Of a stretch of 37,330 nucleotides of DNA, positions 11,201 through 37,054 are shown piece by piece; within the stretch, counting starts at the first letter, position 1, and every line of letters begins with the position of its first letter. Origin of the DNA: Nemertoderma westbladi (lineage: Eukaryota > Animalia > Xenacoelomorpha); contig JAUCBJ010000285.1 in NCBI GenBank assembly GCA_032718475.1, positions 1 to 37,330 of the forward strand, given 5' to 3'. Both the position numbers and the translations under genes were made by a program. The notes under the pieces are model-generated. The model saw nothing but the letters and a program-made list of their open reading frames with translations. It was not told where the DNA came from and searched no databases.

Positions 11201-13955
11201 GCGCGATGGGTGAAGCACTAATACCAACTGGCGTGCGATATGTAGAGAACGGTTTAGCGATCCGTGTACTTGTAATAGCTGGACCGGGTATAGGAATTCT
11301 GGTCGTCGTCAACTCGCGTATAGTCGGAGTTCTCGCCTCCTGTTCGGCCTTCTGCAGTGCAAACAGTTCTCGCAACTCAGTACCTACACTCGCCCCACAT
11401 TCTTCGATCATTCGCATTCCCTTCTCGGCGATTTCATTCGCCTTCCTGGTCCGTTCTTCGCTCTCTAAGTTTAGTTCCTTGCGCTCGCGTTAGAGTTGAA
11501 GCTCGCATTTCTTCTGTTCACGCTCGAGTTCCTTCTGTTCGCGTTCGAGTTGAAGCTCACGTTCCTTCTGTTTGCGTTCGAGTTGAAGCTCATGTTCCTT
11601 CTGTTTGCGTTCGAGTTGAAGCTCGCGTTCCTTCTGTTTGCGTTCCGCTCGTTCACGCTTACTTATGTCCTCCAACTCTCGTAGCTCTGCATCCAGTGTG
11701 CGCTCCCGTTCCCGCTCGGCCTCCTTCCGTGCTTCCAATGCACGCAAAACTTCCGCCTGTTGTTCTTCCAGTCGGTGTCTTCTTTCCTCCGCCGAGTTGT
11801 GAGAAACAATGGACCTAGCGCACATAACTTTCCCTCGCGCGTGACTAACCTGGGAATCGCCACTGTCTCAAGATGCGTCGTCGGGTGGAGTTAACGTCCT
11901 CTGTCGGATATTGTCCGTCGTCGGTAGCACCTGGCCCGGTAACACCACTCCACTCTGCATCAGCCAGCTGGTAACTTCCCTCTGATACCTGCGCTCTTCT
12001 TTCGCTTGTGTCCTTCTGGGCTCCTCCCGGAGGCGCACCCATGAGGCGGACACCTTTCTACGGAGGGTGGCCCGATGCTTCCTGGGTTCTGTTTTCGGTC
12101 CCCCGATCACACCGGCACAGCTCGTCGAATGTGTAGCCAGATGGGCGGCTACTGTCAACTCACTGTGGCCTGACTGTACATTGAGCCAACTCAAAGTATA
12201 ACAAAGAGTCAACCGGCAGGTAGACCAGTCGATAGCGATCGAGCATCAAGGTCGCCCTTGGGCCTAACCGACGGTCTTGTCCCGAGCGGGCTTGCGCTAC
12301 CCAACATGGAATATTGACACGTTTTCACCTGCCTCACCGGCAGTATTGAGGGGACACCATTCCACAACAATACTGACTAGCTCGAAAGCTAGGAACAAGT
12401 AACCACTTACCAGTCACTGTACACGTGTACTCAACAGATGTTCACAATATCAAGTACACTACGGTAAACACAAAATCGGACACATACCATGCACACACAG
12501 AAGACATAATTGGAAGGACAAAATCGGTGTCAAAATCAGGAGGGACTAGTTGTATCGACTATAGACATCGCGAAAAGAAAGTCGAGAGTCGAGAGTTTAT
12601 TTTACCGTCAGGGCAAAATAACTTGTGTGTACAAAGCATGCTGGGGCGCAGTAAAGTATGGTCCTACTAATACCAGCAGCATCTGGACCATCCGGCAAGG
12701 TTTCCCACACTCACTCACAGTGGCCATACATACAATCACGTGTACTCACGCACCCACAGTGACAAAGCTCATCTCAGACACAAACACACCCAAAGACCAA
12801 TCAGCTGAACATGGAGACAATAACATATAGTATCAAAAAAGCGGAACAGCTGTCGGTCAATGGCACACATCCAAGCCCCAAAGCTAACTGTCACTGGTCG
12901 CCCACATACAAATCACAGTTCACACCACATGAACCACAAATCACGCCATGCCACCACCCATACTGTGTACAGGACTGGTAGTACGGCAACAGGCCGACTA
13001 GATGGTACCACGGCACCATGTCGATTCATGGTTCGCTAGACACAAGGGCCTTCAGTATCTCCCTTGCACTTAGAGACAATTTAACGTGCCCCCAGACCCT
13101 CGCGAGTCTGCCGCCGCCTGCTCAAGACACCCCTATAGAGACCTCATCTCTTTAGGTATCTTGCGTCTCTTCCCGCTCCACTAAGTTTCTCGACTCTGCG
13201 TCACTCACCTGAGTCGCCTGCGCTTGTGATGCCCATAGCAACCAGTTCTCCGTCCTAACTCGTCGAAATCGCTCCAATAACGCGCGGTGCTCCAACAAGG
13301 CTGCCAAAACCCTGTCGTAAACCCTCATCGCCACGTCGCTCGACTGAGAGTCCACTGCTCTCTTCGCTAGGACTGCAAGCTCCTCTGTCTGCTTGAACAA
13401 TGCTGAGTAGTATCCCCTTCTAATCTCTACTAACCCTTCCCTTCCGATGTTACCAGAGTTGGCTAGCATCTTTCTTACCTTATCCGCCGTCCGAGTTATA
13501 TGTCCGGCATGCGCGCGAAGTTTCTTCTTTATCGCTATGTCTAGTTCTCTCTCGCTTACCTGACTCACACTCGGTGGACTTGAAGGATTATTTCGGGAAC
13601 TACGGGTACTCCTTATAGCCGCTGGGACCACGGCACTTACCATACCCACAGTTCTGGAAACTGGGCTCCGGGCTTTCGCTTCTGCTACACTACTCTCCCT
13701 ATCACTCACCTCTGGCCGGGCTGCTGTACAATCCTTCCTTACAGTAGTGGTAGGGGATCCTAATACTATTACTTGAGGTCCTTGTTCTTCCTCACTAGTT
13801 ACTGTCTCGTCCTCCTGTTCACTTACGTCAGCGTCGCTTGCTGCGTCGTCATAGTCGGCATTGTCATCGACAGTTATATTAACGCTATCATCAGTCAGCG
13901 GTCCAGCCGCCGTCTCATAGCTGTCTTATAGTGCCTCCTTCTCTGAGACACTCAT
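8278..13955 (-). pseudogene. Decayed BEL/Pao element B gag-protease region
   Basis: ATG 13955 with an early stop, then LRAHAGHITRT (13152-13709). ORFs 11868-12212, 11490-11825 and 9399-11417 share one frame split by nonsense codons. Gag core QKFMGNHRHW...AMKTLSDLYGN; knuckles CQFC..H..C, CWACLAPGHVRRQC, then a frameshift to CMECGRLHHKLLH; degenerate protease MLDIAS; further frameshifts near 8983 and 8474; cut by the LINE at 8277. Confidence 0.85.
11490..11650 (-). repeat. 33-bp coding tandem repeat (ERKQKERELQL) in gag B
   Basis: About 4 copies of GAGTTGAAGCTC..GTTCCTTCTGTTTGCGTTC encoding an E/R/K/Q coiled coil. Confidence 0.85.
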
Positions 13956-17190: not shown

Positions 17191-17438
17191 GGCGGTGTAG
17201 AGAATAATATGATATTAGACCTTATATTGCCAATTAATGTGTTTGGTAAGTACAGTTCACTAATCCACACTATGTACTTACAGCTGATTTACACATTATA
17301 CATTCCGTACTCCTATATCTGTTGTACTTATTGTGAGTAACATATCTTTACCCATAATTACATCAATATATTGTACTTTGTTCATTTTAAATCAATAAAT
17401 GTTTTCATTTATGGATATCGCTTTCGCGTTATCCAATA

Positions 17439-17538
17439 GGCACTTCAAATATTGAAAAATACGAGATTCGGAAAATAAGCAAAGTTGAGATTTCAACGCA
17501 CATTTATAGGTTTTCTGGACCGCTGAATCAATTGAAAG
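17439..17538 (-). repeat. Left part of an inverted ~175-bp satellite-like unit split by element C
   Basis: Joined to 28606-28670, its reverse complement matches the units at 28690-29036 (ACTTTCAAT.GATT.AGCGG.CCAGA.AACC.ATAAA..TG.GTTGAAAT). Confidence 0.8.
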
Positions 17539-18527
17539 TGTTGCCGTTATTCCTACACCAGGGGGGAAAAACGCCGATGCTGGAGACGTGACTTAACAGA
17601 CCACCGAGCCCCGGCCAGTCACCGGATATTGATTGTGGGGAGGGAATATTTTCTAAGATGCAAGTTTGCGGTTGAGAAAAGCTGCATTAGTTGGATATAC
17701 TCTTTAATGTAACTGAACTCTGTTGAACCTTGTTCAACAATATTGAAACTTGATTAAGAATAATTTTGGGCTTCCCCAAATCAATATACACCAAATATTC
17801 ACAATAATTATACACGATAATATAAATCCCTACGGTATATTATTTAATAACCCACTGTTCGCTCAGAATTTTAGCCTACCTAATGTTCCTCAGATTTTCC
17901 CTCAGTCCCAGTCTTAGTACCGTAGTGTCGGTGTCGGTCGACCCTTTCGCATGTCCGTCCCACCCCTCACGAACCCCGAAGGGATTGGTCATCGAGAACC
18001 AGTACGGCTTAGGTCAGGGGGCAGTCGTTAGTTGGCCACCTGTTCACGTGTCCGCTCCACCCCTCACGAACCCCGGGGTTCGATCATCGAGAACCAGAAC
18101 GGCTTGGCTACTAAGGGGCCGTCGGTGCCCGTCGCAAATCCCTGACACAAGCAGTCAGCGTTCCGAGTTCTTTTCAGTCTCGTAGTAGCTGCCGTTGGCC
18201 AGGGACCGCTAAGGGCAGTCCTTGTCCTTTAGGCCTGGCGCATTACCAAATCCACCCCTACAGGCAGCAGGAAGTTGGCCAGGGCCTAATAGTACTCAGG
18301 CTAACCTGAATACTGCTTGCATTTTCCATCCCCCCTGGCCCTTATAACTATGAAATTATTCCCGTACCCTGTAAGTTGCCCCAAAGTTCGCCCATAAATC
18401 GCCCCCAGTTTATTGAATGTGCCCAAAACCCATGGTCCCGCACCCAGTAGTAATATCGGAATAATCAATTTTAAATAAATACAAAAATATTCAACTCGCG
18501 TTATGGAAAGTTGAAATACCGCGAACA
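17539..18527 (-). repeat. 3' LTR of element C (989 bp)
   Basis: Direct repeat of 26994-28600 lacking 27401-28018; two substitutions noticed by eye (GATTGG/GATCGG, TTCACG/TTCGCG). Confidence 0.96.
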
Positions 18528-18536
18528 GTCCCCCCC
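18528..18536 (-). promoter_or_regulatory. Polypurine tract of element C
   Basis: Minus strand reads GGGGGGGAC immediately before the TGTTCGCGG LTR start, which fixes the element orientation. Confidence 0.85.
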
Positions 18537-18693
18537 AATGACCTTCGTGAAGTCTGTCGGTCGATTGAGTTTGCGTAGGTCATTCCCAATATAAAAAATC
18601 CCAAATTTAATATTGCATAGTTTTTAATTAATTTGGCCTAGAGTTTGTATAAAAATAAATGTTCGATAAATGTTCCTGGAATATCCCAATCCA

Positions 18694-21294
18694 TTATTTC
18701 TTTTTCTGGTACGCCTTTCGTCTCTTCGCCCTTCGACTCTCATCGATCGCTATGGCTGGTAGAGGAGCGTCAACATCCATTGTGAGTAACGCTTCGGCTT
18801 GTCTCCTGGCGGCTCTTCCTTTCGAAGGCAACGGTATCATGTCGGTTCGTCTTTCCAACTCGGAGTTGCGTGCCTCTAGGAACCATTCTCCGTCACCGAA
18901 CTCCTCTTTATACGAATATAATCGTCTAATAACTTCGAATGGACCGAATAATCCGGCGCTCAGTAGCAGATCCACGTAATGGAAGGGTAGCGAGGCCGAC
19001 GTGTGGAGGCGTTCCGGGAAGGAGAAATATCCGCACGCCATCTCCTGCGCGATATTCCGAGCGTTTCTCCGAAACTTGGTCTTTAAGTGGCTGTTTGCGT
19101 ATGTTTCAAACATGACCATATTTCCCATAGCGGTAACGTCTTTGGTTGGACATTTGATATAGCAGCGGGGGCTAGAGGAATGTCCACGGAAACCGCACGT
19201 GGTGCAGAGGTTATAAAGAATCGGGCAGACGGAAACGTCGTGGCCCGATGTCGCGCAGTATGGGCAATAGAGTATCCCGAGGAGCTGGAGGCATGAATCG
19301 GTAACCCGATTCCTTCTGCTGCGTGGGCACTGCTCCGAACCGCAGTCGCCGCATACCTCCAACTGCATCTCTCGACCGGGGAATATCGGAATCGGGACGC
19401 CGGCGTAGTATTCGAGTCGTCGGTCGCTCTTCGGAATATTCTCGGTGGTCGGTAGCCCGCGGAATGCTGGGCTTTTGCGTAGTATGTTCTCGCTTCGATA
19501 ACCCTCTTTGTGTCCCGCTGGTCTCAGCTCGGACGACCGTTTCTGGCGGTGGATCCATTCAGTTTGCTCGGCGTACCAACGAGTTAGTCGCATAGGGTCC
19601 TGAGGAACGGCGGGTGTAGAAGCTACCGCTGGTCGGCGAAGGGGTGCCGGGGTTTTAGATGGAGGGATACCGAGGAGATCGTCGGGTGTCGGCGCATCGC
19701 TGGGGCCTTCCTCGACCAGTATCGCTGAGCGGGTCCGTTGTTGGCTGGTACTCGGAATCTCCGACGACCAATCTTCGCCGCCCGGGAAAGGATACGGGGA
19801 TAACCGTTGGCATATGTCGCCGAAGTCGCTCAATGCAGCCGTAGTGGCTACCTCTCTCGCGGGGCTACCGGAGCCGCGTGGGGTGTAGACGCCTGCTCTC
19901 TTCATCGGTTCGGCCGAGGCAACCCGTTTGGCGGCTGGTCCATACGCGGCCTCCGGCTCGAGTTGTCGCTTTGGGGTGGAGAGTAGAACACCCTCGTTTA
20001 GCCATATCTCTTCCCCTTCCGAGGAGATCAGAGGCTCCTCCGCACCGAGAAGTTCGGTAATCGTAGGGATGTCGTAAGGTCCGCTCTCGTCCCAGGAATC
20101 GATAACGGCGGGTGTTTTCGATTCTCCCGGTGTAATGTTCTCGACCGCTTTAAACGCATGGTTTATAACCTCGTTCCAATCGTAGTCGACGAAGGAAAGG
20201 GGGACCGCCGTAATAAGGTTATCGAGAGTTTTACAGATAAACTTAGCGACGGTGTAGCATTCCATAACGACGTAGATATAGCTCCGTCGATCGGGATTCT
20301 CCCACCTTTGGTGTATCGTCCACTTCCGATCGACGTCCTTCCATCGACCCTCTCGCTCGCTCTTTATCTCTAATCCCGGGTATCCGCCGTATATTTTATT
20401 ATAGTCCCGGAATTTCTGGGGTTTGAAGTCGATACCGCCGTTGAGCACAGCGAGGTAGCCGATCCCGGATTTCGTCGGTCTCACTTCTTGGAATCCTCGC
20501 ATGAACTCGGCGAATCGTAACCAGGCTAGCAGCGTTTGAGTGTCGATGCAATGGCTAAGTGCGTTGAGGTCGTTTCGTCGGTTTCTTCCTGCGGGAGCGT
20601 TCGCGTAGTCGTTCCGGACGTCCGCCTTGATATCCGACCCGATTTTAATGACGTCGAAGTCGAAGAGGATCTTTTGGATATCCGGAGGCAGCAACCAGAT
20701 CGCTCCGGCTGCCTGCACTTCCTGTCTGGGTGTCAGGAATATTCGGCACACCAGTACCAAACCGTCCAGGGTTCCGAGGACGACGACTAAGGATCGACCG
20801 TATTCTTTCGCCCCGTACTTTTCCTGGTAGTCGTCGCGGTTTTGGATAATCGATACGCGTTCCTCTCGAAGCGTCGCCGTACACTCCGACAGGTTTTCCC
20901 AGTGGGCGAGGTACGTACTCTTGTCGTCGACGAAACTTTGACATCTCGCCAACGTAATCGCTTTCGAGGTGGGCGTCGCGTTTCCCTCGTTGTCGTAGAT
21001 CAAACATCGGGATCTGTAGACGCTCTGCCGGAACGTTTCCCAAAACGACGAATCGTCCCCTCCGGTTGCCTTTGCGTTCCGAGTTCTTTTCAGTCTCGTA
21101 CTAGCATCGGCTAACCGGAGGGCTCGTAGATTCTTAGAATCCGGTCCCTCTCGCCCGGTGAATTTAACTTCTCGTACGTTCTCATTTAGCAGAATGCTCC
21201 ACTTTGTATCAAAGTCAGGGGATCCAGGTTGCGAATATTCCAGTAGATCTATCGTGTTACGTAATTCGCCGATAATTTGGCGATTTGGGTCCAT
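18694..21294 (-). CDS. Accessory 866-aa protein: degenerate DEDDy (WRN/RNase D-like) 3'-5' exonuclease-like domain, disordered linker, Cys/His zinc knuckles
   Basis: Intact ORF in the env position. LPPDIQKILFDFDVIKIGSDIKAD, CIDTQ, SGIGYLA and RWENP..YIYVVME resemble the WRN-type exonuclease pattern (by eye). C-terminal CGDCGSEQC, CPYCATSGHDVSVC, CTTCGFRGHSSSPRC; basic tail RRAKRRKAYQKKK. Confidence 0.75.
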   Translation of the reverse strand: MDPNRQIIGELRNTIDLLEYSQPGSPDFDTKWSILLNENVREVKFTGREGPDSKNLRALRLADASTRLKRTRNAKATGGDDSSFWETFRQSVYRSRCLIYDNEGNATPTSKAITLARCQSFVDDKSTYLAHWENLSECTATLREERVSIIQNRDDYQEKYGAKEYGRSLVVVLGTLDGLVLVCRIFLTPRQEVQAAGAIWLLPPDIQKILFDFDVIKIGSDIKADVRNDYANAPAGRNRRNDLNALSHCIDTQTLLAWLRFAEFMRGFQEVRPTKSGIGYLAVLNGGIDFKPQKFRDYNKIYGGYPGLEIKSEREGRWKDVDRKWTIHQRWENPDRRSYIYVVMECYTVAKFICKTLDNLITAVPLSFVDYDWNEVINHAFKAVENITPGESKTPAVIDSWDESGPYDIPTITELLGAEEPLISSEGEEIWLNEGVLLSTPKRQLEPEAAYGPAAKRVASAEPMKRAGVYTPRGSGSPAREVATTAALSDFGDICQRLSPYPFPGGEDWSSEIPSTSQQRTRSAILVEEGPSDAPTPDDLLGIPPSKTPAPLRRPAVASTPAVPQDPMRLTRWYAEQTEWIHRQKRSSELRPAGHKEGYRSENILRKSPAFRGLPTTENIPKSDRRLEYYAGVPIPIFPGREMQLEVCGDCGSEQCPRSRRNRVTDSCLQLLGILYCPYCATSGHDVSVCPILYNLCTTCGFRGHSSSPRCYIKCPTKDVTAMGNMVMFETYANSHLKTKFRRNARNIAQEMACGYFSFPERLHTSASLPFHYVDLLLSAGLFGPFEVIRRLYSYKEEFGDGEWFLEARNSELERRTDMIPLPSKGRAARRQAEALLTMDVDAPLPAIAIDESRRAKRRKAYQKKK

Positions 21295-21851
21295 ATTTAC
21301 GATTATATCCGTTACAAATTAGATCAGTTAATTATAAGTCCAGAAAGTCTGAAACTATAGCGATAGCAGAATAATTCAGTTTTTTTTATTTAATTCAGTT
21401 TATTAAATAACATTGCTATATAGACATCTATCATCTTATTGCTAATACATTCAGCATTTACAGTTACTATAGCTATACATAATATCCAACCAGTTTTTTA
21501 TGACTTTTTTGTCCTTTTTTTTCCAATTCTTTTCTTTGACCTCTTTTATACCTTTTTTTTGTCTTTTTTCATTTCATTATTATTTCATCTCATTTCATTT
21601 ATTTCCACATATATTTCAACACATTTAGTTCCACCATTTATTTCACATTTATTTATTTCCACATCATCATTGGGTTTATAGCCCCCCGGCTATCATCATT
21701 TGTTATAAGCGCAGCACCAGGGTGCGCATCATTTCATTTTCATCAGTATACGCGTCATCATTCAGGTTTATAGTAGAGTTGTCTGATCCTTTTCATCGTT
21801 TCCAACTATATTCAATCATTTTCTTTGGTTAATCTTTGTCGTGGAAGGGGT

Positions 21852-22262
21852 GTTACGCGTCAATCTGGGATCTACAGCTGGACTCGTTACACCGCCTACG
21901 CCCCAAACTGCGCACGTAACGGACAATGAAGACGCTAGGAGTGAAGTCACGTGGGTGCACCAGGGACCCACCAGAATAACACTCCCAACAACATAAAGCT
22001 CAGTCGACGAAGTCATGTGGGATGGGGTTACGCAACATTCTGGGATCTACAGCTGGACTCGTTACACCGCCTACGCCCCAAAATCCACGCAACGGTCCCA
22101 CCAGAATAACGCGACTGAGAAACATAAAACCCTCTATCGTCGAAGTCATGTGGATGCACCATGGACCCACCAGAATAACGGGATAGAGGGGGTGTTGCGC
22201 GGCAATCCGGGATCTACAGCTGGACTCGTTACACCGCCTACGCCCCGAACTGCGCACGCAAC
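21852..22262 (-). ncRNA. Cluster of six predicted structured RNA modules (two families, three copies each)
   Basis: An invariant 38-mer at 21867, 22042 and 22209, and a second motif at 21938, 21999 and 22130, each closed by complementary arms that differ between copies. Confidence 0.65.
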
Positions 22263-22541
22263 GGACAACATAACATACTGCAATGAATACAATGAATTCC
22301 ACTTCAAATCTTTTCCATTTCCAATAATCCAATATCATTGGTCCCGATGACCAAAATCAGGGTAAACAATACATAAACGACCCTGCGTCAGTCGAAACAT
22401 CTGCAGGGTGATGCTGGACTCCACATAACACACGAGGAAACACAAATACCATTGCGTGGTTACAGTTGGTTTAAGGGGGGTCCATAACTCGTTGTCGATA
22501 AATCACAGTTTTTAAGAGTTTGTCAACATGATGAGAAGGGT

Positions 22542-23894
22542 TTAAACGCATTTATAATTGTCACCAATGTCTGCAGCAGGATCCGTAGTAGGGAACTTAT
22601 CACCTCTTGTAGAATCACCACTGTCATTGCCTTCAAGAAGGCACAGCTTCTGGATAGGGCGTTGGTAGTGGCCCTTTGCCGTTCGTATCGTCACAGTCCT
22701 CGCAAGTCCGTCTTTGCTTGGGTGTATGGTCACGACCCGCGCCACAGGCCAGTGAACGCGGTCTTTGAGATCTTCTTTAACTAGCACCATGTCGCCAACT
22801 GCGACGTTCCGGTAGGTGTTGTTCCATTTCCTCCTGGTCCGGAGGGTTATGAGGTATTCCTGGGCCCAAATTCTCCACCAATGCGCTGCCAACGCTTGGG
22901 CCTTTTTCCAGTTTGTATGTTTCGCGATCTCGTTGGGATCCGGGAACATGGTTTCCGGGAGGAGGTGGGTTTTGGGTCTCCCCAGTAGATGGTTAGGAGT
23001 GAGGGACTCAACTGAGGCGTTCGCCATCCGGGTATTATGGCAGATTAGTCCGTGCTCTCCCATTATTGGTGTCAATGTTATCAACATCATTATTATCATC
23101 AACAACCTTATTAGCCACCAAAGCATGGGCACGCGCCAATGTCCGTCTTTAAACGTGGCCTGGTCGAGAACGTCCATACAATATTGGTCCTCTTCGGATG
23201 GATTTTCGTCCTTTTCCGCGAACTCCTGGGTCTCCAAATTAAAATATTTCGTCATCTCTCGTTGGGTTTTCTCGGTTTCCAGAAACAAATCCTCGTCGAG
23301 ATCCGAAGCTGAGCAGTAACCCACGGAGGTTACATTCTCTTTAATCTGACATTTGGGAAGGTAGGTATAGGTGTCCGTGGTTTCCTCCTTAATGCCGCAG
23401 AGTGTCCATCCCATTATTGTTCGTTCAGCATAAAATCCGTCATCCTGGTTTATAGATCGGGCGATATCTCCGGTGGGGATGTGTAGTTCCGGTGTATCAA
23501 GTCCGATCAGTAGGGTGATACGGTTTACGTCCAACTGCGGACACCTCAGGTCTACATCGTCCCGGTCCAATTGTATGAGGGGGGCGTACTCGGCTGATTG
23601 TCGGAACCGCACCCGGAGGTCTGTGTGTACCAAGGCGTTCTTTATGGTTAACTTAGCCGTTTCGTAGCCCTTCATCACTCCTTCCATCTGGAGTTGCACC
23701 TCCCCGGACTCTACCTCTCTGTTATCGGTGATGGTTTGTATGGGCCGTTTACAAGGCTCATATTCTAGGCCGAGTTGCTCGAGAAAATCCCGGTCGATGA
23801 TGGTTCCGTCGGACCCGTTATCGAGGAATGCGAGTGTCGTCAAAGATTTGCCGACTCCTTGGATCCTTACTGGGATTACCTTTGCGAAAACCAT
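22542..23894 (-). CDS. Aspartic protease fused in frame to the BEL integrase C-terminal (DUF5641-like) region; RT-RNaseH-IN core deleted
   Basis: AFLDNGS; RTIMGWTLCG; RT N-terminal remnant DGHWRVPMLW; then directly SLTPNHLLG, WWRIWAQEYL, VGDMVLV, WPVARV, DGLARTV, RPIQKLCLLE. Confidence 0.9.
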   Translation of the reverse strand: MVFAKVIPVRIQGVGKSLTTLAFLDNGSDGTIIDRDFLEQLGLEYEPCKRPIQTITDNREVESGEVQLQMEGVMKGYETAKLTIKNALVHTDLRVRFRQSAEYAPLIQLDRDDVDLRCPQLDVNRITLLIGLDTPELHIPTGDIARSINQDDGFYAERTIMGWTLCGIKEETTDTYTYLPKCQIKENVTSVGYCSASDLDEDLFLETEKTQREMTKYFNLETQEFAEKDENPSEEDQYCMDVLDQATFKDGHWRVPMLWWLIRLLMIIMMLITLTPIMGEHGLICHNTRMANASVESLTPNHLLGRPKTHLLPETMFPDPNEIAKHTNWKKAQALAAHWWRIWAQEYLITLRTRRKWNNTYRNVAVGDMVLVKEDLKDRVHWPVARVVTIHPSKDGLARTVTIRTAKGHYQRPIQKLCLLEGNDSGDSTRGDKFPTTDPAADIGDNYKCV

Positions 23895-23905
23895 GTAGCG
23901 GCGAT

Positions 23906-26509
23906 TTATAAGTTAATCGTGGCCGAAATATTTGTTACTTGTGGTGTAGCGGTGGAGATTTTAAACGGGTTGGTTTCTCTCCGTTGGGTTGTCCGGGTTC
24001 CTTTGAAGATGTGGTTTGTTTCTCCTCTTCGCCTGGCTTCGATCCGAAAGGGGAGGGTAGTAAAATCGAAGTTCGCGGGGATGTGGAGGAGCGTGTGATG
24101 GCGTTGGTCGTTACAGACAGTACAGCATGATCTTTGGTCGCACTCCCGAACATAGTGACCTGTTCCAAGACACCGGAAGCATCCTCGGTGTTTCATTATC
24201 GCCTCGAAGCGTGGGACAAGTTCGGCGAACTGAAACTTTCTGCAGAATTCCACTTTGTGTTTCTCCCCACAGAAGAGACATATAGTGGAGGCTGTGGTGC
24301 CTTCCCTTTCGGGTGCCCAATTCGCTAGGTAGCATGCCCATTCTTCTGCTAAGGTCGGTTCCTCGTAATCCTCGTCATCCGAGTCCTCAGCCATACTGAT
24401 GGCCATCGCACTCACAGGAGTAGGGCGGAATCTTGGGTTTGGAGTGGGTGCCCTGCTCTGGTAATTGCTCTCCATTGCGTCCAACTTGGCGAGACTTTGT
24501 TTCGAGAACATCGAGTCATTCATGGCTTCGGAGATATCGTCCAGGAATGCCGACATTTCGAGGAAGCTGGGATCTTGATCTGGATGTCTGCGCCGGAGAT
24601 CTACGCATTTATAGGCCCACTTACTTTGCAGCCATCCGGGGAACTTCCGGGCGATCTGTCGGAGGTTTAGAATGTTGTTCACCTGGTCCTCCTTATTTAA
24701 GGGTTTCAGAGTGTAGTAGGCATCCTTCATGGAATCTGAGAATTCCTGGAGGTTCTGTGGGTCCCCTAGTGATCCCGCGTCTTGTATCAGTTTCTCTAGA
24801 GTTTTATTAATTATAGTTCCGGTATTTCCGTATCTTTTATCTAGAGTTTTCCATGCGTCATAGTATGCCTCATGAGAACCTCCCTCAAAACATGCAACAA
24901 TTCTGCGTGGTTTGTCACCCAGGTATTGCGATAAATATACCAATTTCTGTGCGTCGGCTATGTCCGTTGATCCGATCTGCGCAAAGAACCGTTTCTTGAA
25001 TCTGAGGTAATCGACGGGATCTCCTTCGAAGGTGCGAATCTCCATCTTCGGCATGGCAAGGCGGTTCTCCAACGCCCGGATGATGCTGACGTCGTCTGAA
25101 CTGGAGTGACTCGGAGGGTTATAGTCATTGGCACTCACTCCCATACTTGATGGATCAATAATAGGTGGAGTTTTAATAATGACGCGGCTGCGAGTTTGTG
25201 GTGTTGATGTAAATGGGTTGTTTGATCGGGGAGTGGCGTCCCGTTCCGAGTCCTTTTCAGGCTCGTACTTGGGTACACTCGCTGTCGTGGTGTTGGATAG
25301 GAAATAGGGTTCCTCATTCTTTAGCCTAGCCGGTGGGGGATGGAACACCGGTGCTTGTGCCGATAGCGTAGACTGTTTGGTAGGCGGGATTTCGGGTTTC
25401 GGAAGTTTCGCCGCTGTCGGTATAAATGACTTTTCTAATTCCGGTACCGGGATTGGTTCATATTCCTGATCTATATCCCTCTCCCAGTCCTCGTAGAGTT
25501 GAATATCTCGTTCTATAAGTGCGGCTTCGTATTCCGCGAGTTTTGCAATATCCGCGTTCTTTTTGTGGATGAGAATTGCTTGGGCCTCGGCGTGTTGTTT
25601 ACGCATTTCTGCTTCCCATTTACGTTGTTCGATCTCCCGTTCGGCCTCTCGTCCGCGTTGTTCGGCCTCCTGTTTGCGTTGTTCGGCCTCGTGTTTGCGC
25701 TGTTCGGCCTGTCGTTCGTCCTCTCGTTTGCGTTGTTCGTCTTCTCGCCTGCGTTGTTCGGCCTGTCGTTCGTCCTCTCGTTTGCGTTGTTCGTCCTCTC
25801 GCCTGCGTTGTTCGGCTTCCTGTTCACGTTGTTCGGCCTGCCGTTCGGCCGCTTGTTCGGCCTCTCGCCTTTGTGTTTCTGCAGCTAATACATCTTGCTC
25901 GGCTTGCAGTTGAATATACTCATCTTCCATCCGAGCTTTGAGGGCTAATGCCTTCCGCTCTCGCAGTTGGTCTCGGAGTGGCGGCGCCCCTTGAGAACTG
26001 CGCGCTGAGCCGGATATCTCGCTCCTAGCGCTGGAGTGCTGATTTCTGGTGGACCCCATTCTTTTGCGATGTACTCCTGTCCTGATGCTGGAGGATCGTA
26101 CTGATTCCGCGTCTGTTCTTTCAGCCCTCTTGTAATACTGTTCCTCATAGCCTCTCACAAGGCTGAGGGTCCTCCGGTGTTGTTTGCGGAACCCATCTAG
26201 ATGTACAACGTGTTCTTCCAGCTTGGGGTAGTTTTCCAGATCGGTGGGGGGAACAAGCTCTTGGTACGCCTGTATCATTCTTTCGTACCGCTGTAGGATA
26301 TTTCGGATACTTTGAAGCTGAGTTTGTACCTCATTGAGGGGGGTTTTGACTCCCTTGAGTTGTTTCTCCATCCGTTGATACGCTCGGGTTACTCCGCCTT
26401 TAAGAGCCCCTAACCGACGGGTCATGTTTTTGACGTTTGGTACCTCGTCGGCTTCCGAGTCTGTGTGGTGATCCATCTCGTCGGTATCGGATACGTTATT
26501 TGTTGTCAT
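23906..26509 (-). CDS. gag: BEL/Pao Gag, 867 aa
   Basis: LKGGVTR N-terminus, EQR-rich coiled-coil repeats, RTFEGDPVDY...AWKTLDKRYGN core, three knuckles CLFCGEKHKVEFC, CFRCLGTGHYVREC, CTVCNDQRHHTLLH. Confidence 0.93.
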   Translation of the reverse strand: MTTNNVSDTDEMDHHTDSEADEVPNVKNMTRRLGALKGGVTRAYQRMEKQLKGVKTPLNEVQTQLQSIRNILQRYERMIQAYQELVPPTDLENYPKLEEHVVHLDGFRKQHRRTLSLVRGYEEQYYKRAERTDAESVRSSSIRTGVHRKRMGSTRNQHSSARSEISGSARSSQGAPPLRDQLRERKALALKARMEDEYIQLQAEQDVLAAETQRREAEQAAERQAEQREQEAEQRRREDEQRKREDERQAEQRRREDEQRKREDERQAEQRKHEAEQRKQEAEQRGREAEREIEQRKWEAEMRKQHAEAQAILIHKKNADIAKLAEYEAALIERDIQLYEDWERDIDQEYEPIPVPELEKSFIPTAAKLPKPEIPPTKQSTLSAQAPVFHPPPARLKNEEPYFLSNTTTASVPKYEPEKDSERDATPRSNNPFTSTPQTRSRVIIKTPPIIDPSSMGVSANDYNPPSHSSSDDVSIIRALENRLAMPKMEIRTFEGDPVDYLRFKKRFFAQIGSTDIADAQKLVYLSQYLGDKPRRIVACFEGGSHEAYYDAWKTLDKRYGNTGTIINKTLEKLIQDAGSLGDPQNLQEFSDSMKDAYYTLKPLNKEDQVNNILNLRQIARKFPGWLQSKWAYKCVDLRRRHPDQDPSFLEMSAFLDDISEAMNDSMFSKQSLAKLDAMESNYQSRAPTPNPRFRPTPVSAMAISMAEDSDDEDYEEPTLAEEWACYLANWAPEREGTTASTICLFCGEKHKVEFCRKFQFAELVPRFEAIMKHRGCFRCLGTGHYVRECDQRSCCTVCNDQRHHTLLHIPANFDFTTLPFRIEARRRGETNHIFKGTRTTQRRETNPFKISTATPQVTNISATINL

Positions 26510-26697
26510 TGTAACGCCTCGTCGATGGCGAGATACGCGATGTCGTAAAACAGTTCCTCGTAGGTATTGTACTCAGCTTGAACCACCCGAACAGTAATCC
26601 TGAATCGTCCGACGTTCGTTCCTTGTACCTCAACTTCGACGTGCCAGATTCCTGGCTCAACTTGAATTATATCAATGGGTGTGATCGATACTTCCAT
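26506..26697 (-). CDS. 63-aa upstream ORF overlapping the gag start (ATGA)
   Basis: ATG start; its TGA overlaps the gag ATG; protein-like alternating hydrophobic pattern followed by an acidic helix. Confidence 0.5.
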   Translation of the reverse strand: MEVSITPIDIIQVEPGIWHVEVEVQGTNVGRFRITVRVVQAEYNTYEELFYDIAYLAIDEALQ

Positions 26698-26863
26698 TCC
26701 CTGTTAACAACTCTCCAAATATGTGATCTGCCGACTACGAATTGGTTAGATCGAGTTTGCTGATTAATTAAACCACGACTTTGTCTCAACTCAAATACCA
26801 GAGTTTCCTCGTAGTGGGTGCTGGCAAGCACGTAGAGAGTTTTTGAAGAGTATTGAAGGATTC

Positions 26864-26993
26864 TCAACTTCCACCAGTTGAAGTTGACCACGATAATTAT
26901 TCTTAATTTTGACACCCTGTCAAAATTAACCACGTGAATTATTCTTAATTTTGACACCCTGTCAAAATTAACCGCATTAATTATTCTTAATTT
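26864..26993. repeat. 42-bp-period hairpin repeats at the expected PBS position
   Basis: TTAATTTTGACA-CCC-TGTCAAAATTAA at 26903-26929 and 26945-26971; variant TCAACTTC-N8-GAAGTTGA at 26864-26887; AATTATTC at 26895, 26937 and 26979. Confidence 0.9.
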
Positions 26994-28600
26994 TGTTGCC
27001 GTTATTCCTACACCAGGGGGGAAAAACGCCGATGCTGGAGACGTGACTTAACAGACCACCGAGCCCCGGCCAGTCACCGGATATTGATTGTGGGGAGGGA
27101 ATATTTTCTAAGATGCAAGTTTGCGGTTGAGAAAAGCTGCATTAGTTGGATATACTCTTTAATGTAACTGAACTCTGTTGAACCTTGTTCAACAATATTG
27201 AAACTTGATTAAGAATAATTTTGGGCTTCCCCAAATCAATATACACCAAATATTCACAATAATTATACACGATAATATAAATCCCTACGGTATATTATTT
27301 AATAACCCACTGTTCGCTCAGAATTTTAGCCTACCTAATGTTCCTCAGATTTTCCCTCAGTCCCAGTCTTAGTACCGTAGTGTCGGTGTCGGTCGACCCT
27401 GTCGCGTGTCCGTTCCACCCCTCACGAACCCCGAAGGGAACGATCATCGAGAACCAGCACGGCTTGGCTAAGGGTCGGTCCAGTCGGTAGACTCTGTCGC
27501 GTATCCGTACCACCCCTCTCGAACCCCGAAGGGTTCGGTCATCGAGAACCAGTACGGCTTGGCTAGGAGTCTGTCATGTCGGTGGACCCGTTCGCGTGTC
27601 CGTTCCACCCCTCACGAACCCCGAAGGGTTCGATCATCGAGAACCAGAACGGCTTGGCTAGGGGTCCGTCAGTTCATCACAGAAACCCAACCACCTAGGC
27701 TTTCCGAGTCCGTTTCAGGCTCGTAGTCGCTTCAGCAGCCGAGAAACTGCTCCGAACAGTCGGTAGGCCAGTAGAGTCTAGTCGAGTCTAGTCCTTTGTC
27801 TTTCGACCCCATCGCGTGTCCGTTCCACCCCTCACGAACCCCGAAGGGAACGATCATCGAGAACCAGAACGGCTTGGCTAAGGGGTCTGTCGTCGGTTCC
27901 CGTCGCAAATCCCAGTCAAGCAGTCAGCGTTCCGAGTTCTTTTCAGGCTCGTAGTAGCTGCCGTTGACCCGAGACCGCTAAGGGCAGTCCTTGTCAAACC
28001 AGTCCTGTGGCCAGCCCTTTCGCATGTCCGTCCCACCCCTCACGAACCCCGAAGGGATCGGTCATCGAGAACCAGTACGGCTTAGGTCAGGGGGCAGTCG
28101 TTAGTTGGCCACCTGTTCGCGTGTCCGCTCCACCCCTCACGAACCCCGGGGTTCGATCATCGAGAACCAGAACGGCTTGGCTACTAAGGGGCCGTCGGTG
28201 CCCGTCGCAAATCCCTGACACAAGCAGTCAGCGTTCCGAGTTCTTTTCAGTCTCGTAGTAGCTGCCGTTGGCCAGGGACCGCTAAGGGCAGTCCTTGTCC
28301 TTTAGGCCTGGCGCATTACCAAATCCACCCCTACAGGCAGCAGGAAGTTGGCCAGGGCCTAATAGTACTCAGGCTAACCTGAATACTGCTTGCATTTTCC
28401 ATCCCCCCTGGCCCTTATAACTATGAAATTATTCCCGTACCCTGTAAGTTGCCCCAAAGTTCGCCCATAAATCGCCCCCAGTTTATTGAATGTGCCCAAA
28501 ACCCATGGTCCCGCACCCAGTAGTAATATCGGAATAATCAATTTTAAATAAATACAAAAATATTCAACTCGCGTTATGGAAAGTTGAAATACCGCGAACA
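26994..28600 (-). repeat. 5' LTR of element C (1607 bp)
   Basis: TG...CA termini; direct repeat of 17539-18527 plus 618 bp; followed by the TSD. Confidence 0.96.
27394..28195 (-). ncRNA. Array of six ~70-nt conserved cores forming predicted rod-like hairpins inside the LTR
   Basis: Cores start at 27401, 27496, 27591, 27811, 28019 and 28116; covarying closing stems; C(UUCG)G cap on the element-sense strand in units 1-5 (shortened in unit 6). Confidence 0.7.
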
Positions 28601-29036
28601 GAAAGTATTATAGAACCCTGAAGACTTAGTGGTTCGGCATTTTTGGTGCACCAAAATTAGGGAGGGGCACTTTTTCCCTGATTGTGCTGTACCAATAATG
28701 ACGTACCAGTAAGACTTGAGGCTTCAATAATACTTTCAATCGATTCAGCGGTCCAGATAACCTATAAAAATGGGTTGAAATGAAAACCTTGTGGTATTTT
28801 CTGAATATCGTAATTTTGAAAATTTGATGTAAGTCTACTTGCCACGCCCTAATTTTGGTGCACCAAAAATGATGTACCACTAAGAATTGAGACTTCTATA
28901 TTACTTTCAATCGATTAAGCGGGCCAGAAAACCCATAAAAATGCGTTGAAATCAAAACTCCTGAGTATTTAACGAATATTGCAATTTTGAAAATTTGAAG
29001 TGCCCCGCCCTAATTAATTATAGTGCACCAAAAATT
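28601..29036. repeat. ~175-bp satellite/MITE-like repeat units with palindrome TTTTGGTGCACCAAAA
   Basis: Remainder of the inverted unit (to ~28670), then two diverged forward units (~28690-28860, ~28860-29036). Confidence 0.75.
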
Positions 29037-29340
29037 CCACTTCCCTTACATTCTTATATATGTAGAGTGCAGAGTGTAGTAGAGTGCTGCATACGAATCA
29101 GAATCAGTAAAAAAAGCCCCTATATAAAGAATTACTATCTCACAAATGACCTTGTAAAACTCGAAAATTTCAAAAAATTTCTGCTGGGGACCAAATTTTG
29201 AGGTGGCACCCACATCGAGAAGTTGAAATCTAATTGCAACGCCGTTTTTTTGCAAAAGATGCGCCATTAAATTTGACTAATTCTCGTAAACAATTGGGCT
29301 GGTACATAATGTTGTTGCATAGATACAGTAATTAAAAACT

Positions 29341-33127: not shown

Positions 33128-35607
33128 CTACTACTACTAGGTCGAGCGAACTCGGACAGTGGAAATGAGATCCTTCCAGACTTCCCGATTCTCCATAGTT
33201 GTCGCAATTTCATTTCTCCTAATTTCAGTATCCCTTTCATGTTGATCTATATATGTTATGGCCGGTCGTCCACGACTACGCTTTCCATGAGTTGATTGCC
33301 AGAAAAGTAGATCTGGTATGACCTCGTCTTTACTTCGCCAGCAGTGCCCACTGAATCTTAATCTGCATTCACGGAGGGTGGTTGATACAGGTGGTATTGT
33401 ACCATAAAGCTCGGCGTTTGTCATGTGTTGTCTCCAGCACTGCAGGCAGCAGTGCAGGCTGCTGCAAAGAGCATTAAGACCAATCGTGCCAGTGGAGTAG
33501 ATGGTGTTCCCCCTGAGGTCTTTAAAATACCTGAGTGTTTAAAGCTCATCTATCCCATCATAGTAGACATGTACCGAACAACAAGAGTCCCACAAGAAAT
33601 GAAAACAAATAAGTTGGTGCCAGTTCCCAAGAAGGGCAACCTAACACTCTATGGTTCTTTTCGGGGAATCTCATTGATCTCGATTGCTGCAAAGCTATAC
33701 AATAGGATTCTATTAAATCGCATCAGGGATCCCATTGAGAGACTGCTCCGTGGAAATCAGAATGGGTTCCGTAAAGGTCGTGGGACCATGGAGCCCATTT
33801 TGGCACTTAGAAGGATAATTGAAGAATTATCAAAAAAGAAAGACAGGCATCTGGCTGTTATCTTTGTTGACTTCTTCAAGGCCTTTGATTCAGTCTCTCG
33901 CTCACGTATGTTCAGCATACTTTCATTATATGGGATTCCTGATGAAATTATTGCAGCAATCAGATCAGTATACGATGGTTCGACAACATTTGTGTCTACT
34001 GTTGACGGTGACACAGAACCATTTGAAGTGTTATGGGGCGTCCTCCAAGGAGACACACTTGCACCATTCTTGTTCATTATTGTGGTTGACTATGTTCTAC
34101 GCATGTCCTTAGATCATCATAATGATGATGGGGTGATGATAACTCCACCTACTGGCTCCAGAAGTCGAGGAAATCCTGCCAAGTACCTAACTGATCTAGA
34201 CTTTGCTGATGACTTAGGAGTACTCTCAGAATCATTAGAGGGAGCCCAACGGCTCCTCAGCTCATTAGAACATGCTGCTTCTAGTGTTGGTCTTTTTATT
34301 AACTCCAGAAAGACCAAAATTCTGACCGTTAACTTTGAAAGTCCTCAGCAAGTCTCTGATCGGATGAGCATAAGCTCAAAGGATGGTATGCTTGAGCATG
34401 TGGACGACTTCTGTTACCTGGGATCATGGATCCGGAAGTCAGGTGAGGACCTTCGAATACGTAAGGGAAAGGCATGGGCAGCCTTGAATAGGCTTTCCAG
34501 GATTTGGAAGTCACCGAGAATTAATCGGAAACTTAAGGTCCGATTATTTAGAGCAGCAGTAGTTCCAGTACTCCTCTATGGGAGTCCATGCTGGGCTCTA
34601 ACTGCTGAGGACACCAAATCTCTGGATGGCACATTCACAAGAATGCTACGCCGGGTTCATTGTGTCAAGTACAATGCACACATCTCCAACCAGACACTAT
34701 ATAACATTGGAGGTGTCTCATTGGTTCCCCCAAGCTTGACACTAGAACAAAACCGCCTCCGCTTTGCAGGACATTGCTTTCGCCGTGAGGACCAGCCAGT
34801 GCATAATCTTGTACTTTGGCAGCCTCATGGAGTGAATAAGCATGGTGGACAGCCCATGACTTTCTTGAGACGCATCTTAAAGGACACTGGCCTTAAAGAT
34901 GCGGATGATCTAGCAAATGTCATGGGTGATAGGGAGTTGTGGCGGTGCAATTTTGTTGACAAGCCGGCACAGCATTCTTAAAAATGCAGCTGCAATGCAG
35001 CATGCCGATCCTAGTAGTAGTAGTAGTAGTCTCCAGCTGATGTTTAGGGCTGCCCTTAGCAGTCTTGTGTAGCAACCATCAATTCGTTGTTCAAGTGATT
35101 TAGTCAGTGTCCAGGTCTCACCCCCATATAAAAATACACTTTCCACTGTGGCTCGAAAGAACTTTGTCTTCAGGTGCCTGGAGAGATCTAATTTCCAGAT
35201 GGTATCCATTTTTGATAGAGCTACCCAAGCCTTTGCTATCCTAACTTCTATGTCCTTTTTGCTACTCTCTATCCATGATCCAAGGTACTGGAAGTCATCG
35301 ACCTTCCTTAGTTGATTATTATCAATGGTTGTCAAGTTTCCATCAACATTAAAGGACATGAATTCGGTCTTTGTAGCATTTATATGCAATCCAACCTCCT
35401 TAGCAGCCCTCTCCACTTTATTTAGTAGAAGCTGTGCATTTGCTAGGGTATTCGAGAGCAGGGCGATGTCATCCGCAAAGTCGGTGTCTGTGACTGTAGT
35501 TGCCGGATATCTACTACTTCTGCGTTCTTGAAGTGTGAATCCCAGGTCTTCACCCTTTGTGGCCGTCCTCATTGCGTAATCCAGCACAATTACAAATTGG
35601 TTGCAAA
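33128..35607 (-). mobile_element. 5'-truncated RTE LINE, family 2 (host of the nested insertion)
   Basis: DTDFADD, FQYLGS, FLYGGETW, RLRFSGHCWR, RGRP; (TAG)n tail at 33128-33139; 11-bp TSD ATTATTGGTAA at 33117-33127 and 35608-35618. Confidence 0.92.
33439..35028 (+). mobile_element. 5'-truncated RTE LINE, family 1, with uninterrupted RT frame (to 34981)
   Basis: ASGVDG, FRGISL, QNGFRKGR, FVDFFKAFDSV, GVLQGDTLAPFLF, FADD; (TAG)n tail; TSD GTCTCCAGC at 33430-33438 and 35029-35037; no endonuclease domain. Confidence 0.95.
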
Positions 35608-36788
35608 ATTATTGGTAAACGTAGAGTATTAGGAAGGCAAAGTTCAGATCATCGTGTCTCGGCTAAACCATGCTCTGGGTAGACCTTGGAAACGACTTGC
35701 CTCTTCTCATTGACATTGCTTATTGCAATATTGCTCTCATACCATAGTCCTAAAATAATATGTATAGTAGGAGATGTCAATTTAACAGTAAATCTGTCAA
35801 AGTAAATCTGTTAAACCCTTTGACCATCTGAAATTCTAGTCGATTAATATATCGTGGCACCCACCGATATACTTAAAAGACAAAATTTCTAGAATCAGTG
35901 GTTAACGTCCCCAGACATGTTCTGGAATAAATCGGTGCCTATCTTAATTTAAAAATAATAAAATTTACGGGAATAAATTTAAATTCATAACCTCTCATGA
36001 ATTAAATAAAATTTAGGACAATTGTTATAATATTTCCTAAAATTAATCAATTAATAGATCACGGGAGCGGAGATTCACCCTATTACAACAAGTGTGAGAG
36101 AATCCCCTAGCATGCCTTTAAATAGCTGACAAATTTAATAAACGTCACATATAAGGGGAATAATAATAACCACTATTAAATATTAAATAGCATTATTAAA
36201 GCACTATTAAATAGCATCGCAGATCTGTGTGTATGAGAAATACCCTAATTTATTACTGCTAGCTTTGCATAATGTCACCTTGGCAACGACAATGATAGAA
36301 TTAAATATAGTCAGAGAACAATAGAAAGCTTGCCTCATTGAATAGAATGCCTAGTGTATAGTATCTAAGGATACACAACAACAATGTGACATTCTGTAAA
36401 GCATTTGACTAACAGACAACCGGCCCCAAATTGTGCGAATTGTGGCATGAATGTGGAATTTGTGTATTTGTCGGTGAATGTTACTACTAAAGTGTGTTTA
36501 CAGTAGCGAGCCGCAATTGTGAAAGTCGTCCCTTACCTGCGTCCATTATCTCTAGTATCTTGGAGCCCTAGGGACGAACAGTGGAGTGACTTGTGCTGGT
36601 TATTGTTGTCGTTGTGTAGCTACTACGTTGGCGAGAAGCACAGCAATGACAGTACATCAGCGCTGAGGATCTCAGGTTGTCCGGGGGCCGGTTGGGAGGG
36701 TGGTACAGGCAGCCACGCTCGCTAGCCTTTATTATTATCGATAAACTCCCCCATATAAAATGACGGAATTGATAGAGGAAGAGAGGAC

Positions 36789-37054
36789 GAGAACTCAGGA
36801 CCTCCGAGACACCGGCTCCCGAGAATCCAAGACTCTTCATATGCTTGAGAACTCGGGAGCTTTGAGACACCGGCTCCAGAGAATCCAAGACTCTTTGTAT
36901 GCTCGAGAACTCAGGAGCTTTGAGACACCGGCTCCAGAGAATCCAAGACTCTTCGTATGCTCGAGAACTTGGGAGCGTTGAGACACCGGCTCCAGAGAAT
37001 CAAAGACTCTTTGTATGCTCGAGAACTCGGGAGCTTCGAGATACCGGCTCCAGA
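36789..37054. repeat. 58-bp tandem repeat, ~4.6 copies
   Basis: Units start GAGAACT at 36789, 36847, 36905, 36963 and 37021. Confidence 0.95.

What the first reader, a model, noticed from the sequence alone, without database searches (positions are those of the whole stretch)
27394..28195. LTR array looks like repeat-spacer units but is a covarying RNA hairpin family
Sense-strand core UAGCCAAG-CCGUUC-UGGUUCUCGAUGAU-CGAACCC-UUCG-GGGUUCG-UGAGGGGUG-GAACGG-ACACGCGA. The variable flanks of each unit are mutually complementary but differ between units: CGACCCT/AGGGTCG (27394/27471), AGACTC/GAGTCT (27489/27567), GGACCC/GGGTCC (27584/27662), GACCCC/GGGGTC (27805/27882). The inner stem covaries (CCGUUC/GAACGG versus CCGUAC/GUACGG in unit 2), and unit 6 keeps it with a U-G wobble that works only on the element-sense strand. 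Conserved internal loops with free stem sequence is the signature of selection on RNA structure, e.g. a multivalent protein-binding element. I do not recognise it as a known family.
Basis: partly seen in the sequence, partly recalled or inferred. Interest (0 to 1): 0.85.

Follow-up and report, generated by a model that had tools for sequence, protein, structure and literature searches.

The report
Folded-RNA module array in retrotransposon LTR
The end repeat of an animal jumping gene carries six copies of a hairpin whose paired arms have changed together while the inner loops stayed fixed, and three further hairpin families sit elsewhere in the same element; they likely act as protein docking sites on the element's RNA, but that role is untested.

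Summary
Six ~85-nt units lie in the 5' LTR (26994-28600, minus strand) of an internally deleted BEL/Pao retrotransposon with a DEDDy-like extra ORF. Their outer arms differ, yet the natural arm matching ranks 1 of 720 permutations; 5 of 27 pairs show double changes. New here: all six units hold a standard kink-turn sequence on the element strand only, though a slipped pairing is predicted 4-6 kcal/mol more stable. Three more module families (B in LTR, gag and ORF3; C and D between pol and ORF3) show the same fixed-loop, free-stem design, and one C module is nested inside a D module. Rfam has no match, and no outside homolog of the unit was found, so covariation rests on paralogues of one element. 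Best reading: a multivalent protein-binding signal on the element RNA, working like the CTE/RTE export elements. Transcription, structure and partners are untested.

The parts
26994..28600 (-). 5' LTR of a BEL/Pao retrotransposon (1607 bp, TG...CA with 4-bp terminal inverted repeat)
   Evidence: matches the other LTR with 2 substitutions in 989 aligned bases; 5-bp target-site duplication on both sides of the element
17539..18527 (-). 3' LTR; lacks 618 bp, leaving one U5/U1 hybrid unit, one U6 copy and one B module; purine tract just upstream
27394..27477 (-). module A, unit U1 (candidate kink-turn, G at 1b = 27445)
27489..27572 (-). module A, unit U2 (compensatory change in inner stem; 3b.3n = C.A)
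27584..27667 (-). module A, unit U3
27805..27887 (-). module A, unit U4
28012..28097 (-). module A, unit U5 (most diverged; 3b.3n = C.U)
28107..28193 (-). module A, unit U6 (U.G wobble in inner stem, 2-nt shorter cap)
28210..28282 (-). module B in LTR: free stem, 5x4 internal loop resembling loop E / bulged-G motif (label recalled), fixed 4-bp stem, GAAA-containing cap
27906..27978 (-). module B in LTR
27680..27748 (-). module B in LTR
25222..25290 (-). module B inside the gag reading frame
21052..21122 (-). module B inside ORF3, in a different frame from the gag copy; folding z = -7.4
21848..22265 (-). three C modules (22190-22265, 22022-22098, 21848-21922) interleaved with three D modules (22125-22192, 21995-22125, 21930-21992); the middle D encloses the middle C as its cap
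27158..27171 (-). initiator-like TCAGTT followed 3 nt later by ATTAAA: candidate start and poly(A) signal that would put the array in U3 (3' UTR); consensus recalled, not mapped
28385..28419 (-). rival promoter: TATAAG with a weaker initiator-like word 30 nt on, which would put the array in R
23906..26572 (-). gag-like ORF (DUF1759, zinc knuckle)
22542..23912 (-). shortened pol: aspartyl protease joined to DUF5641; no RT, RNase H or integrase match in this copy
18694..21318 (-). ORF3: DEDDy/RNase D-like domain plus zinc-knuckle cluster; lacks the first D-x-E strand present in its relatives

Best explanation
The array is likely a multivalent protein-docking signal on the RNA of a BEL/Pao retrotransposon, which would work like the CTE/RTE export elements of other LTR elements by loading several protein copies on the RNA to get it exported, protected and delivered to particle assembly. 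Shown by the sequence: six units in the LTR, arm-specific pairing, fixed loops, strand asymmetry, three further module families, loss of units by recombination between them. Follows from LTR biology: any LTR base is in the full-length RNA at one end (U3 at the 3' end, U5 at the 5' end, R at both). Inferred: the array lies in U3, so in the 3' UTR of both the genomic RNA and a spliced ORF3 RNA; each unit is a free outer stem that presents two fixed loops; the upper loop becomes a kink-turn when an L7Ae-family host protein such as Snu13/15.5K binds (about 0.45), and is a five-base bulge otherwise; C and D, upstream of a likely ORF3 splice acceptor, would mark unspliced RNA only; Gag or the nuclease-like ORF3 protein may read B, C or D.
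For: Natural arm matching ranks 1 of 720 for A and 1 of 120 for B. Double changes in 5 of 27 pairs of A and 2 of 7 of B. Kink-turn pattern (C-G pair, 3-nt bulge GAU, tandem G.A/A.G, paired stem) in 6 of 6 units on the minus strand and 0 of 6 on the plus strand; it meets the definition in PMC8191799, with -1b:-1n = C:G and non-Watson-Crick 3b:3n in every unit; the two changes of U2 fall on the same 3b.3n pair in this register (U.U to C.A). Module B keeps 25 of 57 columns invariant across LTR, gag and ORF3 although the two coding copies are in different frames. The family is multi-copy in three DNA data sets from three studies, one of which may be the window's source, and the LTRs differ by 2 substitutions, so the RNA has been copied recently. 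An AG preceded by pyrimidines stands just before the ORF3 start in two relatives and about 55 nt before it here. The ORF3 family profile matches EXD2 (E 0.001) and Egalitarian (E 0.007).
Against: All covariation comes from paralogues of one element; no outside homolog. The kink-turn register is 4.0-6.0 kcal/mol less stable than a slipped register in 8 of 8 units by nearest-neighbour energies, and 2-3% of shuffled units give a kink-turn pattern with the same bulge rule (15-25% under the loose rule). One inner-stem pair is broken in 2 of 6 units and folding z-scores of U1, U5, U6 are not significant. LTRs with one or two A units exist, so six are not needed. BEL/Pao elements with a related ORF3 in two other assemblies show no unit match and no such arrays in the parts held, though their LTRs are mostly missing. 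No transcript start, structure probing or binding data. The data do not separate export from packaging or stabilisation.
Confidence: 0.5

Rival explanations
1. The modules are packaging or dimerisation signals read by the element's own Gag zinc knuckle; repeating them raises the share of element RNA that enters particles.
For: Gag carries a zinc knuckle; B is dispersed along the RNA, including inside gag; the fixed loops expose G residues. Retroviral packaging regions use several stem-loops (recalled).
Against: If the array is in U3 it would be on the spliced ORF3 RNA too and could not discriminate genomic RNA (inference). No self-complementary loop is evident: A is capped by UUCG.
Confidence: 0.2
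2. The modules act on RNA stability or translation rather than traffic: protein-bound kink-turns block exonucleases at the 3' end or, if the array is in R, shut down scanning of the leader.
For: A TATAAG word upstream of the array would place it in the leader with many upstream AUGs; L7Ae binding to a 5'-leader kink-turn regulates translation in archaea (PMC6298567, search listing only).
Against: The only TCAGT word of the LTR lies downstream of the array, followed at once by ATTAAA, which favours U3. No U-rich triple-helix loop in A.
Confidence: 0.12
3. A DNA-level feature: enhancer-like tandem repeats in U3 whose arms became complementary by template switching, with no role as RNA.
For: U3 regions often hold tandem enhancer repeats (recalled); unit number varies freely; core units differ by only 1-11 of 69 positions, so invariance of loops is partly recent ancestry.
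Against: Template switching would be expected to erase internal loops, which are the fixed part; many G.U pairs and the kink-turn pattern work on one strand only; B recurs inside two ORFs with its own pairing arms; a Pol III B-box word is present in only 2 of 6 units.
Confidence: 0.1
4. The modules form a self-folding RNA machine: a new self-cleaving ribozyme, or GAAA caps of B docking in the lower loop of A to compact or dimerise the RNA.
For: The lower loop of A resembles the 11-nt GAAA receptor (C2-G10, A4-A5, A8 kept; U5 also has U3 and U9), B has a GAAA-containing cap, and A and B alternate in the LTR. Non-autonomous LTR elements with hammerheads are known in plants (recalled).
Against: No Rfam match at gathering score or among the 4 rows at E <= 10; no hammerhead, hairpin, pistol or HDV core word in a unit. 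Receptor core position U3 is C in 5 of 6 units, and substitutions at the 8A-3U step greatly weaken GAAA binding (PMC10243134). The B cap closes as a clean GAAA tetraloop on three pairs only in the gag copy.
Confidence: 0.08

Closest known systems
Constitutive transport element (MPMV CTE) and the RTE/MTE of IAP and MusD (recalled; one search found no paper with all terms)
   Same: Cis-acting rod-like RNA in an LTR element; fixed internal loops on replaceable stems; more than one binding site; C and D lie between pol and the last ORF.
   Different: No Rfam match; located in the LTR as a 1-6 unit array; different loop motifs; four module families in one element; partner unknown.
Standard kink-turns bound by L7Ae/Snu13 (box C/D, U4; PMC8191799, PMC4382518)
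   Same: C-G pair, 3-nt bulge with purine first and U last, tandem G.A/A.G, U.U at 3b.3n in 4 of 6 units as in box C/D (box C/D detail recalled).
   Different: 4b.4n is C-G, so the box C and box D words are not met; the flanking helix is rich in U.G pairs and a slipped register is predicted more stable; arrayed in a retrotransposon LTR.
LTR retrotransposons with a DEDDy-type ORF3 (bdelloid Juno/Vesta; PMC5408684)
   Same: Extra ORF3 with an RNase D-like domain downstream of pol.
   Different: Here a BEL/Pao element; ORF3 adds a zinc-knuckle cluster and lacks the first D-x-E strand; the passages read report no RNA modules.
Egalitarian-BicD localisation signals, including the I-factor ILS (PMC13186709)
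   Same: Bent stem-loops, used in more than one copy, that move a retroelement RNA; read by a protein with an exonuclease-like domain related to ORF3.
   Different: Those signals need bulges on the 3' strand and U-A pairs at set places; module A is G/C-rich with its bulge on the 5' strand.
Retrozymes and Cassandra elements (recalled)
   Same: Structured RNA carried inside the LTR of an LTR element.
   Different: No hammerhead, 5S or tRNA match.

Membership tests
BEL/Pao LTR retrotransposon | Two LTRs with TG...CA ends and a target-site duplication | tested here: met
   5-bp duplication, 2 substitutions in 989 aligned bases
BEL/Pao LTR retrotransposon | gag with DUF1759 and zinc knuckles; DUF5641 at the end of pol | tested here: met
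BEL/Pao LTR retrotransposon | RT, RNase H and integrase in pol | tested here: not met
   absent in this copy, which is an internally deleted derivative
Standard kink-turn | 3-nt bulge followed by tandem G.A/A.G between two helices | tested here: met
   6 of 6 units, minus strand only; definition from PMC8191799
Standard kink-turn | The kink-turn register is the one adopted | tested here: inconclusive
   slipped register 4.0-6.0 kcal/mol lower in a model that omits non-canonical and protein energy; the U2 double change fits the kink-turn register
Standard kink-turn | Kinked geometry and L7Ae/Snu13 binding | not testable with these tools
   needs FRET, probing or binding assay
Box C/D snoRNA | Box C RUGAUGA and box D CUGA at the kink-turn | tested here: not met
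   the only RUGAUGA of the LTR is outside the units; no Rfam match
11-nt GAAA tetraloop receptor | Core C2-G10 and U3.A8, A4-A5 platform | tested here: not met
   U3 is C in 5 of 6 units; core defined in PMC10243134
Known self-cleaving ribozymes | Match to Rfam models or core words | tested here: not met
Known self-cleaving ribozymes | Self-cleavage | not testable with these tools
   needs a cleavage assay
CTE/RTE-type export element | Sequence/structure match to the described elements | tested here: not met
   no Rfam match
CTE/RTE-type export element | Promotes export of unspliced RNA | not testable with these tools
   needs a reporter assay
Egl-BicD localisation signal | Bulges on the 3' strand and U-A pairs at two set sites | tested here: not met
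   features from PMC13186709 passages compared by eye with folds: bulge is on the 5' strand
Loop E / bulged-G motif (module B) | AGUA/GAA loop or its ACUA variant between two stems | tested here: inconclusive
   sequence fits in 5 of 5 copies (2 AGUA, 3 ACUA), but the definition is recalled; one search returned no paper

The most novel reading that the evidence does not exclude
This BEL/Pao family has built a modular RNA toolkit: an LTR array of kink-turns that recruits the host snoRNP/U4 protein Snu13 in up to six copies, plus loop-E and other modules read by an element-encoded dead DEDDy nuclease with zinc fingers (a Rev-like or Egalitarian-like adaptor), with unit number tuned by recombination.
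Probability: 0.2. Interest if true: 0.85.

Novelty: new variant of a known kind. Interest (0 to 1): 0.62.

Why it matters
Cis-acting RNA signals are described for retroviruses and a few LTR elements, and my searches listed no paper that by title or abstract start describes any in BEL/Pao elements or a kink-turn array in an LTR; the library lacks most subscription papers. Four families of short modules with natural compensatory variants give ready-made constructs and controls to ask how an invertebrate retrotransposon gets its unspliced RNA exported and packaged, and they suggest a function for the unexplained DEDDy-type ORF3 of LTR elements. A natural tandem kink-turn array would also be a new use of the L7Ae/Snu13 system.

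Tried and rejected
Rfam: 0 matches at gathering score in the window; 4 weak rows at E 1-9 in 17400-29100, none on a module. No tRNA. ORF3 motif scan: 0 in viral contigs; 13 loci in genome contigs, of which 2 are BEL/Pao-like with ORF3 after pol (L006, L010), 2 are their near-copies (L012, L009), 2 match ORF3 only (L005, L014) and 7 show no match to the window's proteins. Model R1 found only the 8 training units; best other score 10.5 bits (7 sources); 0 of 2 assemblies. 14 DUF5641 loci from those assemblies: no B, C or kink-turn pattern, short repeats in 2 of 14; their LTRs are mostly not in the loci. Sequencing runs: no RNA holder listed; run X6 is RNA only by guess, so it is not used as evidence of expression. 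Laying contigs on one unit reported variants only in the middle of the stretch (two frequent A-to-U changes in the top stem, one rare change, one 2-nt deletion) and so did not test the kink-turn positions. One search used a mis-registered structure string and is discarded; one search is the corrected count. ORF3: no hit, no Pfam match, Atlas lead PF01612 at 0.82 only, structure model poor (mean pLDDT 42) and its fold search meaningless. No whole genome is held. Rejected: box C/D snoRNA, Pol III B box (2 of 6 units), hammerhead (shares only the tandem G.A), 11-nt receptor as a general reading, Egl-type signal.

Full report
Setting. Self-comparison and Pfam place the finding in the 5' LTR of a BEL/Pao retrotransposon on the minus strand. 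The LTRs are 26994-28600 and 17539-18527, with TG...CA ends and a 5-bp target-site duplication; they differ by 2 substitutions in 989 aligned bases and by a 618-bp gap in the 3' LTR. Between them lie a gag-like ORF (DUF1759), a shortened pol (protease joined to DUF5641, no RT, RNase H or integrase match) and an 874-codon ORF3. Contigs of three DNA runs from three studies cover all 30 bins of the element with hundreds of variant places, so the family is multi-copy; one run may be the window's source. The host was not identified; no genome is held.

The observation. Six units lie between 27394 and 28193 and two more in the 3' LTR. On the element-sense strand each folds as an outer stem, a lower internal loop, an inner stem, an upper asymmetric loop and a capped top stem. 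The outer arms differ between units, yet the natural matching of 5' and 3' arms has the best summed duplex energy of 720 permutations; row by row the own arm is best or tied in 4 of 6. A pair count on the eight rows gives 88.4% paired cells and 5 of 27 pairs with changes on both sides, 4 in the outer stem and 1 in the inner; slid registers give 33-57%. The rows are related and the structure was derived from them, so the shuffle counts are not probabilities.

The upper loop. In all six units the sequence reads C-G pair, bulge GAU, G.A and A.G, a non-Watson-Crick pair, then a stem; a structure-based scan finds this on the minus strand in 6 of 6 and on the plus strand in 0 of 6. That is the standard kink-turn as defined in PMC8191799 (first of five parts read). 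The 3b.3n pair is U.U in four units, C.A in U2 and C.U in U5; by the rules in PMC4382518 (first of four parts read) Watson-Crick pairs there block ion-induced folding and 3b = C favours it, and box C/D kink-turns fold only on L7Ae binding. The two changes of U2 fall on this one pair. Two results weigh against it. A shuffled unit gives such a pattern 2-3% of the time (15-25% under the loose rule), and the units are homologues, not six tests. And a slipped register with a five-base bulge is 4.0-6.0 kcal/mol more stable in 8 of 8 units in a model that omits non-canonical and protein energies. I put the kink-turn at about 0.45; in either register the loop is a fixed, likely protein-read surface. 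Box C and D words are not met.

The lower loop resembles the 11-nt GAAA receptor, but the core U3 is C in 5 of 6 units, and substitutions at that step greatly weaken binding in PMC10243134 (second of seven parts and keyword passages read; PMC11571812 first part). I treat this as a weak lead.

Three more families. Module B occurs three times in the 5' LTR, once in the 3' LTR, once inside gag and once inside ORF3, the two coding copies in different frames. Its flanks differ and the natural matching ranks 1 of 120 (own arm best in 3 of 5 rows); 2 of 7 counted pairs change on both sides. Its 5x4 loop reads AGUA/GAA or ACUA/GAA, which I recall as the loop E / bulged-G motif; one search returned no paper to cite. 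Between pol and ORF3 lie three C modules with an identical 38-nt core and three D modules, all on free pairing stems; the middle D encloses a whole C as its cap. On the sense strand 7 of 11 folded B/C/D stretches reach z below -2.4; the two single D modules and the gag B copy score lower z on the antisense strand.

Place in the RNA. Any LTR base is in the full-length RNA at one end, so 'outside all transcripts' is not open for an element that has transposed (established LTR biology). The only TCAGT word of the LTR is at 27171, followed by ATTAAA at 27163; a TATAAG at 28419 is the rival (consensus words recalled). The first puts the array in U3, in the 3' UTR; the second in R. An acceptor-like AG precedes ORF3 here and in two relatives, so C and D would be on unspliced RNA only (inference). 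Unit number varies: six, two (3' LTR, with a hybrid unit whose outer stem is partly broken), and one in a contig of run X6; run X4 shows another skip.

ORF3. It has 10 unnamed relatives sharing a DEDDy-like domain and a Cys/His cluster; their profile matches EXD2 and Egalitarian weakly. This copy lacks the first D-x-E strand. DEDDy ORF3s are known in rotifer LTR elements, function untested (PMC5408684, keyword passages). Two BEL/Pao elements from other assemblies have the same gene order but no match to model R1 and no arrays in the parts held, which mostly lack LTRs.

Mechanism. I commit to a multivalent protein-docking signal that works like CTE/RTE elements (0.5). Rivals: Gag packaging signal (0.2), stability or translation control (0.12), DNA repeat without RNA role (0.1), ribozyme or self-docking RNA (0.08). 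Egl-type signals need 3'-strand bulges (PMC13186709, keyword passages), which A lacks. Tandem G.A motifs serve as transport codes in ID retroposons (PMC4033767, keyword passages), a loose precedent. Two unchecked scan notes describe covarying arrays in other retroelements; they suggest the design recurs but are not support.

Novelty. No Rfam family, no outside homolog, and six literature searches (listings and abstract starts seen, except PMC5408684) showed no description; most subscription papers are not in the library and no supplements were read. Structured cis-elements in LTR elements are a known kind; this array with a candidate kink-turn and three companion families in a BEL/Pao element is a new variant. 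Interest 0.62: real and directly testable, but limited to one family so far and without RNA data.

Noticed in passing
window 18694-21318: ORF3 belongs to an unnamed family (10 representatives at E <= 0.001, 20-25% identity over the alignment) with a DEDDy-like domain and a conserved Cys/His cluster; this copy lacks the first D-x-E strand, so it may be a dead nuclease.
   Followed up: partly
L006:1-3600, L010:4400-7292: BEL/Pao elements with the same ORF3 type after pol sit as short contigs inside two assemblies titled as bacteria, so these hold eukaryotic DNA; both have a splice-acceptor-like AG right before the ORF3 start.
   Followed up: partly
window 23005-23136: Summed contig depth drops to about 900-1400 at three listed places here against several thousand or more at most others, with loose ends at both sides: most family copies seem to differ from this one at the break in pol, so this shortened form is probably a minority.
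   Followed up: partly
window 17439-17538 and 28601-29004: The element is inserted in an AT-rich repeat with nested inverted arms (76-84% identity), probably a foldback or MITE-like element.
   Followed up: no
window 26874-26995: Three 42-bp tandem copies just inside the 5' LTR, where the primer-binding site should be; contigs in two runs skip 47-94 bases here; no clear primer site identified.
   Followed up: no
window 2-5899 and 8474-13925: Other BEL/Pao sequences (a long gag-pol ORF and a second gag-like ORF) that carry no A-D module.
   Followed up: partly
window 7386-8277 and 34130-35021: Two 99% identical copies of a LINE-type RT fragment (RVT_1 plus DUF6451).
   Followed up: no
window 36788-37054: Tandem array of 4.6 copies of a 58-bp unit.
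   Followed up: no
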